A stretch of 63,032 nt of DNA from a virus (IMGVR_UViG_3300035668_000048:1-63032), one strand, 5' to 3'; counted from the stretch's first letter, positions 2,955 through 54,861 are shown. Made by a program: numbers and translations. The notes: generated by a model not told the origin, from the sequence alone.

Positions 2955-3206
2955 TCATTTTGCACCAGGAGAAGCGGGCGAGGCGGTCATCAACGCTTCC
3001 CGCAGCTTGAAAATCTCTTTGTGACACTCGGCTAGCTGAGACCGAACCAACGTCAGTTCCTTCTCGCTAGCCACGACCTGACCGGATAGCACTGCAGTGA
3101 GGCAGGCGCGCATTACCTTGCGCTCATCGTCGGACCATTGCCTGTCAACCGGTTTGCCCCAATAAGCATCAAGCATTCGTTCGACCATCGTCTCACTTAC
3201 CGTCAT
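2955..3206 (-). CDS. Hypothetical protein
   Basis: Start overlaps the stop of the upstream gene; coiled C-terminus. Confidence 0.55.
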   Translation of the reverse strand: MTVSETMVERMLDAYWGKPVDRQWSDDERKVMRACLTAVLSGQVVASEKELTLVRSQLAECHKEIFKLREALMTASPASPGAK

Positions 3207-3412
3207 CAGCGCTTCTCCTGGGCGCGGGCGTGTTTGTCCAGTTGGTGCCATGCGCGATTGGCGGCGTACATCAGGTCATCGTCACCAGCAGTTTTCGCCG
3301 ATACCGACAGGTCATTGACAACTCGAATTGCATTCGCGAGTTTGTCCATCAGGGCTTTGTCGGGCATTTGCTTCGTCTCCCCGCTCATCTGGCGCGCTTT
3401 GGGTTGGGTCAT
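3206..3412 (-). CDS. Hypothetical protein
   Basis: Overlapping start/stop chain. Confidence 0.55.
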   Translation of the reverse strand: MTQPKARQMSGETKQMPDKALMDKLANAIRVVNDLSVSAKTAGDDDLMYAANRAWHQLDKHARAQEKR

Positions 3413-3657
3413 GGGCGCTGCGAATCCTTGATAACTTGGTGTGCGGTTTCGAGAACCGTTTCTGTAATAGGGCTCTTTCCAGTCAGCGCGCGAAGCAATG
3501 TTTCCATCACCGGGTTGTCGTTCGGGCTGTAGCGAACGCGATCAAATGCACGCCGGATCAAGCCTCGCTTCGCCGTTAATTCTTTGTATTGCGCCTCCCG
3601 CAAACCAGTCCTGCGGACATTGATCAGCACGCCATAGTCATCCAAGCGCTCAGCCAT
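3409..3657 (-). CDS. Hypothetical protein
   Basis: MAERLDDY start with upstream RBS; ATGA overlap with the next gene. Confidence 0.55.
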   Translation of the reverse strand: MAERLDDYGVLINVRRTGLREAQYKELTAKRGLIRRAFDRVRYSPNDNPVMETLLRALTGKSPITETVLETAHQVIKDSQRP

Positions 3658-26939: not shown

Positions 26940-27027
26940 CTAGCAGCGTGGTTAAGAGCACGAAAATCGAGACCTTCATGGGCGCTCGGTTTCGTGAAAA
27001 CGAACCCTTGTGCTCGGGGCCTGCTAG
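26940..27027 (+). ncRNA. Predicted multibranch structured RNA leader upstream of the RAMP-like gene
   Basis: CTAGCAG/CTGCTAG and GAGCACGA/TTGTGCTC nested stems; GGTTTCGT-GAAA-ACGAACC GNRA hairpin. Confidence 0.5.
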
Positions 27028-27056
27028 CGCCGGGCGCTCATGGAGACTGAAACCAA

Positions 27057-27752
27057 ATGGCTAAGGCACCTGCAAAGAAAGAGAACGTCGCGATTGAGCT
27101 TCCCAAGCTCGATCTGCAAACGATGGAAGTGACGCTGATCGGCGATAGCCCGCTGATCGTCCACGCGTGGTCGATGAAGGCGAAAAAGGAAATGCTCGGC
27201 AAGCAGATGAAAGAGGCAACCGGCGCCAAAGAGGCGAAAGAGCCGGAAGCTGATTTTCAAGCGTCAATGTACAGGCTGGCGGACGGCGGGCACGGCTTCC
27301 CGAGTGTGGCGTTCAAGAATGCTGCTGTCACGGCCGGAACGTCCGTTGCGGGGCTGACAAAGATTGCCGCGCGCCAAGCATTCCACATCGTCGGGGAGGA
27401 TGTTGATATCCGCGGCGCGTTTGTCGGCGCTATGTCACGAACGAATCTTGTTCGGATCGAGGGTGACAACCCACAAATCCGCGAGGACATGGTTCGCGTC
27501 GGCATGGGGACGGCGGACCTCCGCTACCGCGCCGAATACCCGTCGTGGCACACCAAGATCGTTGTGCGGTTCAACGCCAACGTACTCTCTCCCGCGCAAA
27601 TTCTGAATCTGCTTAACACCGCCGGCTTCGCCGTTGGTGTCGGTGAGTGGCGCCCGGAGCGCGACGGTCAATATGGGCTTTTCCACGTCGCTACCGAAGT
27701 GGAGATGAAAGCCCTCAACAAACCCAAATCGAAACTCAGGAGAGTCGCATAA
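27057..27752 (+). CDS. Stand-alone RAMP/Cas7-like protein
   Basis: EVTLIGDSPLIVH (beta1), GFPSVAFKNA (cf. IPGSSLKG), C-terminal Gly-rich loop GVGEWRPERDGQYGLF. Confidence 0.75.
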   Translation: MAKAPAKKENVAIELPKLDLQTMEVTLIGDSPLIVHAWSMKAKKEMLGKQMKEATGAKEAKEPEADFQASMYRLADGGHGFPSVAFKNAAVTAGTSVAGLTKIAARQAFHIVGEDVDIRGAFVGAMSRTNLVRIEGDNPQIREDMVRVGMGTADLRYRAEYPSWHTKIVVRFNANVLSPAQILNLLNTAGFAVGVGEWRPERDGQYGLFHVATEVEMKALNKPKSKLRRVA

Positions 27753-28264
27753 TGAAAATCGCTGGTTACGAATTTGCGGAGAACAGCCGGTTTCAGCCGG
27801 GCGCTGTTCTCCAGGCAAAAGATGTAGGGAGCCGACTTGAAGAACTTCGAAAGAAGTTTAAGGGCGAGCTAACTCCGAAGGATGTTGTGGACGACGCGCG
27901 AAGCAAGAGGTCGCCTCTTCATTCATTTTTCGAATGGAACGATAGCGGGGCGGCGGAAGCCTTTCGCCTTACTCAGGCGCGCGGACTTATCCGGTCGGTA
28001 GTGGCGATCTACACTCACACTGATAAGCCGGCAACGCGCTTGCGTGCCTTTGTGCATATTCCGGAACCAGGGGCACCGCACTATCGTGAGCTATCCGACG
28101 CGATGAGTAAGACGGCTACGCGCACTTTAATACTTCAGCGCGCGTGGCGAGAACTTACCGCGTGGCGGCAACGATACCAAGACCTCAAAGACTTTTCCGA
28201 TTTGTTCAAGAAGATTGAGGAGATCGAGAGAAACCCACCCAAGGCGTTAAAGGCCGTCAGTTAG
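27752..28264 (+). CDS. Accessory protein coupled to the RAMP-like gene
   Basis: TAATG overlap; LTPKDVVDDAR...PLHSFFEWNDSGAAEAFRLTQARGLI motif; 170 aa. Confidence 0.8.
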   Translation: MKIAGYEFAENSRFQPGAVLQAKDVGSRLEELRKKFKGELTPKDVVDDARSKRSPLHSFFEWNDSGAAEAFRLTQARGLIRSVVAIYTHTDKPATRLRAFVHIPEPGAPHYRELSDAMSKTATRTLILQRAWRELTAWRQRYQDLKDFSDLFKKIEEIERNPPKALKAVS

Positions 28265-28273
28265 TTCGTACAA

Positions 28274-28627
28274 GGCAGGCAAGGCCGGGCTTGGTTGGGA
28301 AATGCCGTAGCCTCAACAGAGTGAGGCGCGGTCGGCATGGCGAGTTGTGTTGTGGTGTGTATTGGCAAGTTTAGGCTGGGCAGGCATGGCAAGTCGCGTT
28401 GCTGCTGGTAACGGCAAGGAATGGTTGCGCGAGTTACGGATGCTTTTTGGGCGAGGCAGGCAAGGTGAGGTGCGGTCGGGCGAGGTGAGGCATGTTGAGT
28501 TCGGGTTTGGAATGGCTGGCAAGGCAAGCTGCGTTCAGGCGGGATCTGGCAAGTCGTGTTTCGGCAGGCGAGGCGACGTGAGGCTGGTTCTGGTTTGTAT
28601 TGGCGTGGCGCGGATGGCAGGCGAGTT
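28274..28627 (+). repeat. Non-coding pentamer-periodic (NN-GGY) array; candidate guide-RNA array
   Basis: Strict 5-nt period over most of its length; GGC(A/T)GGC-type markers at 28274, 28330, 28379, 28455, 28514, 28563 and 28616. Confidence 0.85.
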
Positions 28628-28642
28628 CACAAAGGCAGATGA

Positions 28643-28945
28643 ATGGCTGACGTAACCGGACCCATCTCAACACTATCGGGCGCGCACCATGCGGTGCCGG
28701 ACGAAAAGCACAGCCGCATGACCACCTCTCCCCGCCATAGCTGGGGCGCGCGAGTACCGTTTCCGCTTGCGCATAAGACGGAACGCGTCTGCAAAAAATG
28801 CGGACTCGTGAAGGTGACGAAACACGAGTCGGAAGGTCCGCGCGATTTTCACTGGCCTGAATTCTGGCGCGGACTCGACAAGATAGAATCAAGAAACACG
28901 CCTGCATGTATTTCTGTCTCCCTTGAAGTGGGGAGGGCGGCTTGA
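28643..28945 (+). CDS. Hypothetical Zn-ribbon protein
   Basis: HSWG...ERVCKKCGLVKVTKHE; first 20 aa identical to ORF 10174-10563. Confidence 0.6.
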   Translation: MADVTGPISTLSGAHHAVPDEKHSRMTTSPRHSWGARVPFPLAHKTERVCKKCGLVKVTKHESEGPRDFHWPEFWRGLDKIESRNTPACISVSLEVGRAA

Positions 28946-30417
28946 GGTATCTCAGCGTTTGCTCGGGAATCGAAGCGGCGACGGTTGCATGGCATCCGAT
29001 CGGCTGGTCGCCGGTTGCGTTCGCCGAGATCGAGAAATTCCCCAGCGCCGTTTTGGCTCATCACTACGGCAGCAACATGCCAGGCCAGCCGCTATCAACC
29101 AACGGTGTTCCGAATTTCGGCGACATCACGAAATTCAAGGATTGGCCGGATGCAACACTCGATGTTCTCGTTGGAGGCACCCCCTGCCAGTCGTTCTCGG
29201 TCGCAGGATTACGTCAAGGCCTGGCTGACCCTCGCGGAAACCTCTGCCTCACCTACCTTGCGATCGCTGACCGCTATCGCCCCGAGTGGATTCTCTGGGA
29301 GAATGTCCCCGGCGTCCTGTCGAGTGACGGAGGACGGGATTTTGGAGCCTTCCTCGGGGGACTGGGGCAACTCGGGTATGGGTGGAGTTACCGGGTTCTC
29401 GATGCGCAATATGTGCGAGTGGACGGGTTTGGACGGGCTGTCCCTCAAAGACGAAGGCGTGTGTTCGTTGTCGGAAATCTTAGAGACTGGCGACGTGCCG
29501 CGGCAGTATTATTTGAGCGCGAAAGCCTGCAAGGGAATACTCCGCCGCGCCGCGAAGCGGGGCAAGGATTTGCCGGCGCAACTGGCAACGGCGCTACAGG
29601 CTATCGCGAAACAGGACAGGGATGGTGGACTGAAGGAATCGCCGGCTTAAGGGCTGATCCTGGCGGGATGCCTGAAAACGTGGTCGCGCACTCACTCCGC
29701 GCCGAAGGCTTCGACACATCGGAAGATGGAACGGGGCGTGGTACGCCGCTCATTCCTATTGATATGCGACAAGCCTCACGCGGTGACCGCATGACAAATA
29801 ATCGCGCCGACGGTTCGAGCGGCGGCGCTCCCGGCACCGGCATTGGGAAGGACGGCGACCCTTCGCCGACAATCGCGAGTTCGCATATTCCAGCCATCGC
29901 GTTCGCACAAAATCAGCGCGACGAATTAAGAGAGATGGACGTAGCCGGGGCTCTCGCCGCAGAGCCGGGAATGAAGCAGCAGACCTATCTCGCCTTCCAG
30001 AGTAAGGCATCGGCAACGCAAAGCATGGCGCCTGGCGTCGTCACCCCGTCAATTGACGTTGGAAAATGTGATGGTCTAGCCGTAGCATTCGATATGCGCG
30101 GCCGTGAAGGCGGTTCGCAATTCGAGGGGCCGCACGACACTGCCAACATCCGCGCCGCGTCAGGCGGCTCTAGCCGGAGCTACGTAGCCCAGACATGGGC
30201 TGTGCGCCGGTTGATTCCTGATGAGTGCGAAAAATTGCAGGGCTTCAAGCCTGGCTACACCAACATCCCATGGCGCGGAAAGAACGGCGCGCCTGACGGC
30301 CCGCGCTACAAGGCGCTCGGGAATAGTATGGCCGTAAATGTGATGCGATGGCTCGGCACACGGATTCAGATGGTGTCAGAAATTGCGGACGCTCAAGCAT
30401 ATGAGGCCGCAGAATGA
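28942..30417 (+). CDS. DNA cytosine-5 methyltransferase
   Basis: YLSVCSGIEA, GGTPCQSFS, WENVPG, QRRRRVF, RYKALGNS. Confidence 0.93.
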   Translation: MRYLSVCSGIEAATVAWHPIGWSPVAFAEIEKFPSAVLAHHYGSNMPGQPLSTNGVPNFGDITKFKDWPDATLDVLVGGTPCQSFSVAGLRQGLADPRGNLCLTYLAIADRYRPEWILWENVPGVLSSDGGRDFGAFLGGLGQLGYGWSYRVLDAQYVRVDGFGRAVPQRRRRVFVVGNLRDWRRAAAVLFERESLQGNTPPRREAGQGFAGATGNGATGYRETGQGWWTEGIAGLRADPGGMPENVVAHSLRAEGFDTSEDGTGRGTPLIPIDMRQASRGDRMTNNRADGSSGGAPGTGIGKDGDPSPTIASSHIPAIAFAQNQRDELREMDVAGALAAEPGMKQQTYLAFQSKASATQSMAPGVVTPSIDVGKCDGLAVAFDMRGREGGSQFEGPHDTANIRAASGGSSRSYVAQTWAVRRLIPDECEKLQGFKPGYTNIPWRGKNGAPDGPRYKALGNSMAVNVMRWLGTRIQMVSEIADAQAYEAAE

Positions 30418-54117: not shown

Positions 54118-54861
54118 ATGGCAGAGGTTTTTCTTGAAAGCACGACACCCGGCGCATGGCTTGTGCCGGCCGACTGGAATGCGAATGACAATTCGGTCGA
54201 GGGCATCGGCGGTGGTGCTGGCGGCGGTCCCACAATAGACGCCAGCACGTCGGGGCTGGGCGGTGGCGGTGGCGGCGACAGCAAAAAGGTCAATTTGAAC
54301 CTCACCCCCGGTTCTTGGGTGCCGTATTCGGTTGGGGCCGGCGGCGAGCCGAACATGCCGGGCGGCGACACTTGGTTCCAATCTCCAGCCGTCCTTTTGG
54401 CCAAGGGTGGAAATATCAGTCTTAATCCACCTAATGCGGTAGCGTTCGGAGGGCAGGCGTCGGAAGGCGTTGGCGACGTAAAATATAGCGGCGGGAATGC
54501 TCGTTCGGGTGCGTCGGGAGGGTCGGCTGGCGGTGCTGCCGGTCCCAATGGCAACGGCGGTCTTGGTCTCGTTAATGGCGGGGCCGGCGATGCCGGTTTC
54601 GGCGGTGCTGGCGGGAGCGCTGCAAGCGGCGGCATTCCCGCGGACGGAGCGGAGTGGGGTAGCTACGGCAGCGGCGGCGGCGGGCAGCGCGTCAGCAATC
54701 TTGCCAACGGAAAGAATGGCGGGAAATACGGCGGCGGCGGCAGTGGCGGGGCCGCATCGGATAATACGATCTTTCTCGGCGGCTTCGGCGCCCAAGGTTT
54801 GATACGGATCACCTATAAGCCGGTCGATACCGTCGTCGATTCCATCATCAAGGCGACTTGA
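54118..54861 (+). CDS. Glycine-rich tail-associated protein
   Basis: W.VPADWN...IGGGAGG...GAQGLIRITY. Confidence 0.75.
   Translation: MAEVFLESTTPGAWLVPADWNANDNSVEGIGGGAGGGPTIDASTSGLGGGGGGDSKKVNLNLTPGSWVPYSVGAGGEPNMPGGDTWFQSPAVLLAKGGNISLNPPNAVAFGGQASEGVGDVKYSGGNARSGASGGSAGGAAGPNGNGGLGLVNGGAGDAGFGGAGGSAASGGIPADGAEWGSYGSGGGGQRVSNLANGKNGGKYGGGGSGGAASDNTIFLGGFGAQGLIRITYKPVDTVVDSIIKAT

What the first reader, a model, noticed from the sequence alone, without database searches (positions are those of the whole stretch)
28274..28627. Array grammar: NN-GGY pentamers delimited by GGC(A/T)GGC markers, with information in the dinucleotides
Seen: markers at 28274, 28330 (GGTCGGC), 28379, 28455, 28514 (GGCTGGC), 28563 and 28616 give segments of 56, 49, 76, 59, 49 and 53 nt. 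Cleanest segment, 28462-28516: aa-GGT ga-GGT gc-GGT cg-GGC ga-GGT ga-GGC at-GTT ga-GTT cg-GGT tt-GGA at-GGC. NN strings are seg2 AT GA GT GT GT TT AA TA TG; seg3 AT AA GC GC TG AC AA AT TG GA AC TG; seg4 AA GA GC CG GA GA AT GA CG TT AT; seg5 AA AA GC CA GG CT AA GT TC; seg6 GA GA GA TG CT TT TT GT GC. The triplet is conserved (GGC, GGT, GTT dominate) while NN varies freely, unlike a slippage microsatellite. Segments 1 and 3 contain register breaks and may be decaying. Inference: each segment is one guide of about 18-24 informative nt and the 4-nt-phase markers are processing or boundary signals. If one target base is skipped between NN pairs, recognition would ignore codon wobble positions.
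Basis: partly seen in the sequence, partly recalled or inferred. Interest (0 to 1): 0.93.

Follow-up and report, generated by a model that had tools for sequence, protein, structure and literature searches.

The report
Phage VIPR guide-RNA array
This G-rich stretch is the guide-RNA array of a VIPR system, a recently described phage weapon in which a small CRISPR-like protein reads five-base repeats to find and silence the DNA of rival mobile elements.

Summary
Window 28274-28627 is a non-coding, G-rich array with a strong 5-nt period (lag-5 autocorrelation z=6.1, no period 3).

It matches the VIPR systems described in three 2026 bioRxiv preprints. The gene two upstream (27057-27752) is a Vipr homologue: its family profile hits the solved SUSP1 Vipr at E=1.1e-12, the RNA-contact residues are kept, and the model has a Cas7-like RAMP fold. 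The next gene (27752-28264) sits where a vap accessory gene would.

All 8 related viral loci, and 60 of 62 bacterial loci with a Vipr homologue, carry the same kind of array next to the gene.

Under the published one-base-skip rule:
- Guide D matches 18/18 positions in 7 of 7 viral-contig hits, all at one in-frame site of a terminase gene in ~10-12 kb satellite-like elements. Two shuffled controls gave 1 and 0 hits.
- Guide C matches 22/22 positions in 4 of 4 metagenome hits, all in one prophage-associated gene family.

Verdict: a new member of a known kind. No RNA data were available.

The parts
27057..27752 (+). vipr gene: 231-aa minimal RAMP protein (phrog_4652)
   Evidence: phmmer against PDB chain 36pp_D 'SUSP1 Vipr protein' gives E=3.9e-4. 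A 65-sequence profile gives E=1.1e-12 over profile positions 22-200 against chain residues 4-188 of 202. H36, R158 and E197-W198-R199 align with SUSP1 H17, R138 and D177-W178-R179. The AF2 model has pLDDT 94.5. Foldseek finds 48 PDB hits at E<=1e-3; all those listed are subunits of type III or type VII CRISPR effector complexes.
27752..28264 (+). candidate vap (vipr-accessory) gene: 170 aa, phrog_15946, with its start overlapping the vipr stop (TAATG)
   Evidence: It follows vipr in the window and in 8 of 8 related viral loci. It has no Pfam, NCBIfam or PDB sequence match. The AF2 model has pLDDT 86. Residues 2-114 weakly resemble winged-helix folds (Z 5.0-5.9) and residues 113-170 form one long helix.
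28274..28333 (+). array start: marker GGCA, five good units (28278-28302), a decayed stretch, then marker GGTC at 28330
28334..28383 (+). guide run A: 10 units, NN = AT GA GT GT GT TT AA TA TG, plus terminal GGCAG
   Evidence: The single exact NNx hit in viral contigs looks like chance (GC 0.25, out of frame).
28383..28458 (+). guide run B: 12 units (28383-28442), followed by an irregular 16 nt, CTTTTTGGGCGAGGCA
   Evidence: Units 2-11 have no exact NNx hit in viral contigs.
28459..28518 (+). guide run C: 12 units, NN = AA GA GC CG GA GA AT GA CG TT AT, plus terminal GGCTG
   Evidence: It has 0 exact hits in viral contigs. It has 4 exact 22/22 hits in metagenome contigs, all at one in-frame site of one gene family.
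28518..28567 (+). guide run D: 10 units, NN = AA AA GC CA GG CT AA GT TC, plus terminal GGCAG; its first G is shared with run C
   Evidence: It has 7 exact 18/18 hits in viral contigs, all at one in-frame site of a TerL gene. Shuffled controls gave 1 and 0 hits.
28567..28616 (+). guide run E: 10 units, NN = GA GA GA TG CT TT TT GT GC, plus terminal GGATG
   Evidence: It has one exact in-frame hit in a viral contig of GC 0.62, in a gene with a PD-(D/E)XK domain. This is a singleton and may be chance.
28616..28625 (+). terminal partial repeat GGCAGGCGAG, identical to the start of run E's marker region (28563-28572)
   Evidence: family D9

Best explanation
The region is the vrRNA array of a VIPR (Viral Interference Programmable Repeat) system carried by a provirus whose closest relatives lie in Rhizobiales/Hyphomicrobiales genomes.

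Inferred by homology with the studied SUSP1 and P. fulva systems:
- The operon vipr (27057-27752), vap (27752-28264) and array (28274-28625) is transcribed as one unit.
- Vipr protomers bind one per pentamer, holding each GGY triplet and presenting the two variable bases.
- The resulting filament pairs those dinucleotides with double-stranded DNA, skipping every third target base.
- Binding silences transcription of the target.

Shown here:
- The protein is a Vipr homologue with a RAMP fold and conserved RNA-contact residues.
- The array has the GGY/NN grammar and is conserved in position, but not in NN content, across relatives.
- It is of the 'staggered' form: five runs of 10-12 units whose registers are offset by one shared base.
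- Two guides have perfect skip-rule matches to foreign phage or satellite genes, and none reaches 80% against the provirus itself.

Inferred only: the 4-nt step ends one Vipr filament and starts the next, and so defines guide boundaries. The likely purpose is competition with other mobile elements in the same hosts. One target is the terminase gene of ~10-12 kb capsid-encoding, integrase-bearing elements. The other is a small acidic-protein gene of unknown function; the one copy whose surroundings I examined lies in a prophage.
For: Protein:
- PDB chain 36pp_D (SUSP1 Vipr) is the only hit at E<=0.01 (E=3.9e-4). It rises to E=1.1e-12 with a family profile over nearly the whole chain.
- H36, R158 and R199 are invariant or nearly so in 65 homologues. 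They align with the residues the cryo-EM preprint names as G1/G2/Y3 contacts.
- The model has pLDDT 94.5, and its Foldseek matches are led by type III and type VII CRISPR complex subunits.
- The family is large: 3627 cluster representatives at E<=1e-3.

Array:
- Period 5, no period 3, and a score far above shuffles.
- It meets the published calling rule of at least 4 GG[CT]NN units.

Conservation:
- 8 of 8 viral loci have vipr (70-86% identity), vap and a downstream array with the same 4-nt markers.
- 60 of 62 genome loci with a Vipr homologue have same-strand pentamer runs beside it. One of the two exceptions ends at the gene.
- Across 2726 units, GGY makes up 73% and G[GT]Y 85%, and all 16 dinucleotides are used.
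- The window's guides are no closer to 243 other guides than unit-shuffled versions are.

Targets:
- Guide D has 7 of 7 exact hits at the KKAHGLNVS site of TerL, in frame 0. The skipped bases vary among the hits, and the contigs have GC 0.60-0.67.
- Named relatives of that TerL come from Mesorhizobium, Rhizobium, Pseudolabrys, Blastochloris and others.
- Guide C has 4 of 4 exact hits at LRKEARDEIDRLI, frame 0. One lies in a prophage region. A 2-mismatch copy lies in a genome of the same order as the closest Vipr relatives.

No self match reaches 80% NN identity.
Against: - No transcript, processing or Vipr-binding data exist for this locus. No RNA run holds it, and the consensus scan found no promoter-like or terminator-like site next to the array.
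- The triplet is looser than the published GGY: only 34 of 58 window units are exact GGY, and GTT/GTC are common.
- No conserved 3' tail or pseudoknot of the SUSP1 type is visible.
- Target evidence is limited. The hits of each guide are homologous copies, so each guide counts as one independent event. Chance alone gives about 0-1 hit per 18-base pattern in viral contigs.
- No control scan could be run for guide C in the metagenome collection.
- The guide C pattern is codon-like and was enriched over its reversed control even in housekeeping genes: 56 of 401 genomes at <=3 mismatches against 6 by my count of the table. The best other hits were in valS and an oxidoreductase.
- Guide D found nothing at <=1 mismatch in 301 genomes of the order of G001.
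- Guides A and B have no credible target.
- No other guide of the 248 called hits the target contigs.
- The vap assignment rests on position only.
Confidence: 0.9

Rival explanations
1. The array is an RNA decoy or regulatory leader. On this reading it is bound periodically by the neighbouring protein, as TRAP binds its spaced triplets (recalled), but it guides nothing, and the NN bases drift freely.
For: The period-5 triplet-plus-spacer grammar alone would fit. Three of five guides have no convincing target.
Against: The neighbouring protein is a homologue of a protein shown to use such RNAs as guides. Two guides match foreign phage genes perfectly and in frame. A guide in relative L057 matches the conserved vipr motif in 48 of 71 sequences at <=3 of 20 mismatches, while its own gene avoids it with 6 mismatches. 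That pattern is hard to explain by drift.
Confidence: 0.05
2. The region is protein-coding: ORF 28347-28655, 102 aa, glycine- and arginine-rich.
For: An open frame exists on the + strand.
Against: There is no 3-nt periodicity, while 5-nt periodicity is strong. The ORF has no Pfam or PHROG family. Arrays in relatives differ in length and register by non-multiples of 3.
Confidence: 0.01
3. The region is a DNA-level element: iterons of a replication origin, a packaging site, or G-quadruplex-forming DNA.
For: It has degenerate direct repeats spaced 49-76 bp, runs of GG, and a position among early or replication-type genes such as a DNA methylase.
Against: Strong strand asymmetry always lies on the vipr strand. 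The linkage is to a RAMP gene across many phyla rather than to replication or packaging genes. A hairpin plus T-run directly follows the array in 3 of 9 loci, which suggests a transcript end.
Confidence: 0.03

Closest known systems
VIPR systems (Vipr + vrRNA), type II examples from Escherichia phage SUSP1 and a Pseudomonas fulva prophage (bioRxiv 10.64898/2026.04.26.720920 and 10.64898/2026.04.26.720927)
   Same: A small RAMP protein with the same G-loop and thumb residues. A two-gene operon followed by an array. GGY/NN pentamers with about 9-12 units per guide. Proviral context. Skip-rule matches that fall on codon positions 1-2 of genes in rival mobile elements.
   Different: Only distant sequence similarity (pairwise E=3.9e-4). 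No conserved 3' tail or pseudoknot seen. Guides abut with a 1-nt overlap instead of being separate ~100-nt units. The triplet is looser (G-G/T-Y). The accessory protein has no recognisable relative. Nothing is tested experimentally here.
'Staggered' vrRNA arrays mentioned in the same preprint (legend of fig. S18, seen as a passage)
   Same: Successive vrRNAs share one nucleotide, so the end of one marks the start of the next. This is what the 4-nt markers amount to here.
   Different: The figure and supplementary tables were not available, so I cannot say whether this clade is the one shown, or which of the seven types it is.
Class 1 CRISPR effector backbones (Cas7/Csm3/Cmr4 on crRNA)
   Same: Fold of the protein. 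One protomer per fixed RNA step. The thumb interrupts pairing periodically.
   Different: No CRISPR repeats or spacers and no other cas genes. The step is 5 nt with only 2 paired, rather than 6 nt with 5 paired. The guide information sits inside the repeat units.
TRAP-trp leader RNA of Bacillus (recalled, from no call)
   Same: Conserved triplets separated by 2-3 free bases, read by a repeating protein assembly.
   Different: The protein is unrelated. In TRAP the spacer bases carry no information. TRAP has no DNA targeting.

Membership tests
VIPR system | A Vipr protein gene (minimal RAMP homologue) at the locus | tested here: met
   Profile against solved SUSP1 Vipr: E=1.1e-12, near full length. 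Pairwise E=3.9e-4.
VIPR system | RAMP hallmarks: RRM-like core, glycine-rich loop, thumb, with the residues that hold GGY | tested here: met
   The model has pLDDT 94.5 and matches type III and type VII CRISPR complex subunits. G194-V-G-E-W-R-P200 aligns with SUSP1 G-V-G-D177-W178-R179-P. R158 aligns with thumb R138, and H36 with H17 (residue roles). This rests on a predicted structure and alignment only.
VIPR system | vrRNA: tandem GG[C/T]NN units (at least 4 by the published caller; 9-16 per vrRNA) on the vipr strand in a flanking intergenic region | tested here: met
   Five runs of 10-12 units lie 10-350 nt after vap. The score is far above shuffles. The triplet is looser than GGY: 34 of 58 units are exact.
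VIPR system | NN hypervariable while the triplet is conserved among relatives | tested here: met
   GGY makes up 73% of 2726 units. The window's guides are no more similar to 243 other guides than shuffles are. Vipr itself is 70-86% identical in the same loci.
VIPR system | Accessory vap gene | tested here: inconclusive
   A conserved 170-aa gene sits between vipr and the array in 9 of 9 loci of this clade. Its fold is only weakly winged-helix-like (Z<6). It could not be compared with vap1-6 because supplements are closed.
VIPR system | Conserved 3' tail (a pseudoknot in the SUSP1 clade) after each repeat tract | tested here: not met
   Runs abut directly with a shared base, and only run B is followed by extra bases, 16 nt. 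The preprint describes tail-less 'staggered' arrays as another VIPR architecture. This therefore argues against type II, not against VIPR.
VIPR system | Guides match natural DNA targets by the NNx (1-nt skip) rule, mostly in coding sequence with the skip at wobble, and do not match their own genome at >=80% | tested here: met
   Guide D: 18/18 in 7 of 7 hits. Guide C: 22/22 in 4 of 4 hits. All are in frame 0. Shuffled D gave 1 and 0 hits. The best self match is 14/18. Guides A, B and E have no target or an ambiguous one.
VIPR system | vrRNAs are expressed, processed and bound by Vipr; binding represses transcription | not testable with these tools
   No RNA run holds this DNA.
CRISPR-Cas | Array of identical direct repeats of 23-50 nt separated by unique spacers, with cas genes | tested here: not met
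   No such repeats were found. The only RAMP-like gene is vipr.

The most novel reading that the evidence does not exclude
In this clade the guide boundaries may be set by phase alone. A single 4-nt step (GGCA|G) throws the next unit out of the 5-nt register, so each Vipr filament ends there, and neighbouring guides are separated without a tail, ribozyme or dedicated nuclease.

The system would be aimed at capsid-encoding, integrase-bearing ~10-12 kb satellites of Rhizobiales phages, through a conserved site in their terminase gene, and at a prophage gene of unknown function. That would extend the phage-versus-satellite use of VIPR from enterobacteria to soil alphaproteobacteria.
Probability: 0.35. 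Interest if true: 0.6.

Novelty: new member of a known kind. Interest (0 to 1): 0.5.

Why it matters
VIPR is a newly reported way of recognising DNA with RNA, proposed to predate CRISPR. This locus has three uses:
- It shows that the grammar can be recognised from raw sequence.
- It adds a divergent, tail-less 'staggered' example from a Rhizobiales provirus.
- It supplies concrete, testable guide-target pairs: a terminase site in small satellite-like elements, and a prophage gene.

The relatives gathered here come from Alphaproteobacteria, Firmicutes, Actinobacteria, Planctomycetes and other groups. Among them, a guide aimed at the most conserved vipr motif also gives material for studying how these arrays are bounded and how systems avoid targeting themselves.

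Tried and rejected
- Tandem Repeats Finder and Rfam at E<=1 found nothing.
- blastn of 27700-29000 against the phage collection found no match.
- NCBIfam and Pfam gave nothing for vipr, vap or the 100-aa downstream ORF. The vap sequence had no PDB relative, and its model had no Foldseek match at E<=1e-3.
- The search for related loci in genome contigs failed with the 65-sequence alignment and found nothing with the single protein. The 9-sequence alignment worked.
- RNA evidence: no RNA holder is listed for 27000-29000. Only one DNA run holds it, and it may be the source.
- Guide C: no exact hit in viral contigs.
- Guide B, units 2-11: no hit.
- Guide A: one hit, in a contig of GC 0.25 and out of frame, taken as chance.
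- Guide C at <=3 mismatches in 401 genomes gave mostly housekeeping genes. I take these as chance, caused by its codon-like composition.
- Guide D at <=1 mismatch: not found in the 301 genomes searched.
- No other of the 248 guides from relatives hits the target contigs at <=12% mismatch.
- A second G-rich peak at 54.3-54.8 kb is a glycine-rich coding region, not an array.
- No promoter-like or terminator-like site lies beside the array.
I therefore could not check the type assignment, the vap families, or whether this locus is among the 667 published systems.

Full report
**What is there.** The window is an IMG/VR provirus record of 63 kb. Positions 28265-28642 lie between two + strand genes and are G-rich and C-poor: G 158, C 66 of 378, with GC skew up to +0.44. 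Base-identity autocorrelation peaks at lags 5, 10 and 15 (z = 6.1, 4.8, 3.8 against 500 shuffles) and shows no signal at lag 3. The stretch is therefore periodic in fives and does not look coding.

A dynamic-programming segmentation into GGY-led units gives 58 five-nt units, 8 four-nt units and 4 others. Its score is 193, against 46 +/- 12 in 300 shuffles, and no other part of the record on either strand comes close.

Read in strict 5-nt register, the array is five runs:
- A: 28334-28383
- B: 28383-28442
- C: 28459-28518
- D: 28518-28567
- E: 28567-28616

Each run has 10-12 units and ends in GGC(A/T)G or GGATG. Successive runs mostly share that last G. A decayed start lies at 28274-28333, and a terminal partial repeat, GGCAGGCGAG, at 28616-28625. 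Tandem Repeats Finder and Rfam see nothing.

**What it belongs to.** The gene two upstream (27057-27752, 231 aa, phrog_4652, no Pfam or NCBIfam family) has one hit at E<=0.01 among solved structures. That hit is chain 36pp_D, 'SUSP1 Vipr protein', at E=3.9e-4. The name led to three 2026 bioRxiv preprints.

What I read of them:
- 10.64898/2026.04.26.720920: abstract, Results, Discussion, three Methods sections, and passages including the legends of figs S17-S22.
- 10.64898/2026.04.26.720927: abstract and the first part of Results.
- 10.64898/2026.10.15.759431: abstract and the vrRNA-caller Methods section.

They describe VIPR systems as follows:
- A ~20-kDa RAMP protein, Vipr, is usually accompanied by an accessory vap gene.
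- The system has vrRNAs made of 9-16 pentamers, in which GGY is conserved and NN is hypervariable.
- One Vipr protomer binds each pentamer.
- The NN bases pair with double-stranded DNA, skipping every third target base. In natural targets the skipped base is usually the codon wobble position.
- The known targets are rival phages, prophages and satellites.
- Seven types are reported, with several array forms, including 'staggered' arrays whose vrRNAs overlap by 1 nt.

**Membership tests.**
- A profile of 65 homologues hits SUSP1 Vipr at E=1.1e-12 over profile positions 22-200 against chain residues 4-188 of 202.
- Window residues H36, R158 and E197-W198-R199 align with SUSP1 H17, R138 and D177-W178-R179. 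The cryo-EM preprint names these as holding the two guanines and the pyrimidine. R158 and R199 are invariant and H36 nearly so.
- The AlphaFold model has mean pLDDT 94.5. Its 48 Foldseek matches at E<=1e-3 are led entirely by subunits of type III and type VII CRISPR effector complexes. That structure library ends before the Vipr entries.
- The family has 3627 cluster representatives at E<=1e-3.
- The next gene (27752-28264, 170 aa, phrog_15946) has no family or solved relative. Its model (pLDDT 86) shows a weakly winged-helix-like N-terminal part (Z 5.0-5.9, below the level I would trust) and a long C-terminal helix. I call it a candidate vap from position only.

**Relatives.**
- Using the 170-aa protein, 8 viral contigs were found. 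All 8 have vipr (70-86% identity), vap and, directly downstream, an array with the same GGC(A/T) four-nt steps every 8-11 units. The gene after the array differs from locus to locus, so the module is vipr-vap-array.
- A Vipr alignment found 62 loci in bacterial genomes. The closest are Rhizobium, Phyllobacterium, Mesorhizobium, Chelativorans and Martelella (70-77%). More distant ones come from Firmicutes, Actinobacteria, Planctomycetes and others.
- A strict-register caller finds same-strand pentamer runs beside vipr in 60 of the 62. One exception (L043) ends at the gene; the other is L045.
- Over 248 runs of at least 8 units (2726 units), GGY makes up 73% and G[GT]Y 85%. All 16 dinucleotides occur at NN. 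The last unit is GGCAG in 142 runs. The window's guides are no more similar to the 243 others than unit-shuffled versions are.
- A GC-rich hairpin followed by a T-run comes right after the array in 3 of 9 loci. A hairpin alone comes in 3 more. There is none in the window.

**Targets.** I turned each run, without its boundary unit, into an NNx pattern.

Results against the reading:
- Guide C had no exact hit in viral contigs.
- Guide B, units 2-11, had none.
- Guide A had one hit, in a contig of GC 0.25 and out of frame.
- Guide C at <=3 mismatches matched in 56 of 401 genomes of the order of G001, against 6 for the reversed pattern by my count of the table. The best of these hits lay in valS and an oxidoreductase, which shows that a codon-like pattern is enriched by composition alone.
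- Guide D at <=1 mismatch was not found in the 301 genomes searched.
- No other guide from the relatives hits the target contigs.

Results for the reading, guide D (18 informative bases):
- It has 7 exact hits in viral contigs, and all 7 lie at the same site of a terminase large-subunit gene (Pfam TerL_ATPase and TerL_nuclease).
- The site reads K-K-A-H-G-L-N-V-S in frame 0. The skipped bases vary among the hits, and the contigs have GC 0.60-0.67.
- Two unit-order shuffles of the pattern gave 1 hit (GC 0.39, no frame-0 ORF) and 0 hits.

The elements guide D hits:
- Four of the seven contigs are complete records of 9.9-11.6 kb.
- L090 carries HNH, TerL, capsid, prohead protease, portal, head-tail adaptor and an integrase, with no tail genes seen.
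- Many contigs holding close TerL relatives are also about 10-11 kb, and the named relatives are from Mesorhizobium, Rhizobium, Pseudolabrys, Blastochloris, Nitratireductor and Labrenzia.
- This gene set resembles capsid-forming phage satellites. That comparison is recalled, from no call.
- The exact peptide is present in 31 of the 120 best TerL representatives.

Results for the reading, guide C (22 informative bases):
- It has 4 exact hits in metagenome contigs, all at one in-frame site (LRKEARDEIDRLI) of a small acidic protein with no family.
- One copy lies next to tape-measure, capsid, protease and HNH genes, so in a prophage.
- The 2-mismatch hit found earlier in genome G325 is the same gene family.

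Guide E has one exact, in-frame hit in a viral contig of GC 0.62, in a gene with a PD-(D/E)XK domain. As a singleton it may be chance.

Self-targeting: the provirus has no homologue of the acidic protein. Its own TerL is 24% identical to the targeted one, and no guide matches the window at 80% or more.

How much this shows: the hits of each guide are homologous, so each guide counts as one independent event. Chance gives roughly 0-1 hit per 18-base pattern in viral contigs. I could run no control for guide C in the metagenome collection. The in-frame position, the host clade and the phage context make true targeting more likely than not. I put it at about 0.65.

**Mechanism.** By homology, the operon is transcribed and Vipr coats each run with one protomer per pentamer. 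The NN bases read DNA with a one-base skip, and binding blocks transcription of the rival element. That a four-nt step ends one filament and starts the next is my inference. It rests on the conservation of the step and on the preprint's description of staggered arrays.

**Rivals.**
- Coding ORF: no period 3, no family, no frame conservation.
- Origin or packaging repeats: strand asymmetry always on the vipr strand, and linkage to a RAMP gene across phyla.
- A non-guiding protein-binding RNA: contradicted by the in-frame perfect matches and by the anti-vipr guide described below.

**Novelty.** The kind is known from 2026 preprints. This locus is a divergent member with a tail-less staggered array.

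Noticed in passing
L057:3025-3079 (Lachnospiraceae MAG locus); window 27504-27532: The first guide of this distant VIPR array reads ATxGGxACxGCxGAxTTxCGxTAxCGxAT. This is the most conserved Vipr motif, M-G-T-A-D-L-R-Y-R (the thumb). It matches 48 of 71 sequences examined at <=3 of 20 mismatches, including the window's vipr (17/20). Its own vipr has 6 mismatches, because it uses AGA/AGC codons. It looks like an anti-VIPR guide with built-in self-avoidance.
   Followed up: partly
L090 (whole 11.6-kb viral contig), also L093, L095, L096: Small integrase-bearing elements of about 10-12 kb carry HNH, TerL, capsid, protease, portal and head-tail adaptor genes but no tail genes seen. Many contigs holding close TerL relatives are also about 10-11 kb. 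They are possibly capsid-forming phage satellites of Rhizobiales; that comparison is recalled.
   Followed up: partly
L062:1379-2400: In this Micromonosporaceae locus the pentamer runs lie upstream of vipr and span about 1 kb, with some 19 abutting runs. It is by far the longest array seen.
   Followed up: no
L009:2642-3506: About 360 nt separate vipr from vap, against none in the other loci. The vap homologue is split between two frames, at 3001-3195 and 3198-3506. It may be a frameshifted accessory gene.
   Followed up: no
window 54300-54860: This second G-rich stretch is a glycine-rich coding region full of GGC/GGN codons, probably part of a tail-fibre-like protein. It is not a pentamer array.
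   Followed up: partly
L002, L006, L009 (about 3519-3565) and L003, L004, L005, L008 (between vap and the first marker): Two different conserved 40-60-nt leader sequences sit between the vap stop and the first GGCA marker in the relatives. The window lacks both and starts its array 10 nt after the stop.
   Followed up: no
window 28942-30417: The C-5 cytosine DNA methylase just downstream is 491 aa. Its Pfam domain is matched in two separate stretches, which suggests a large insertion between the catalytic and target-recognition parts.
   Followed up: no
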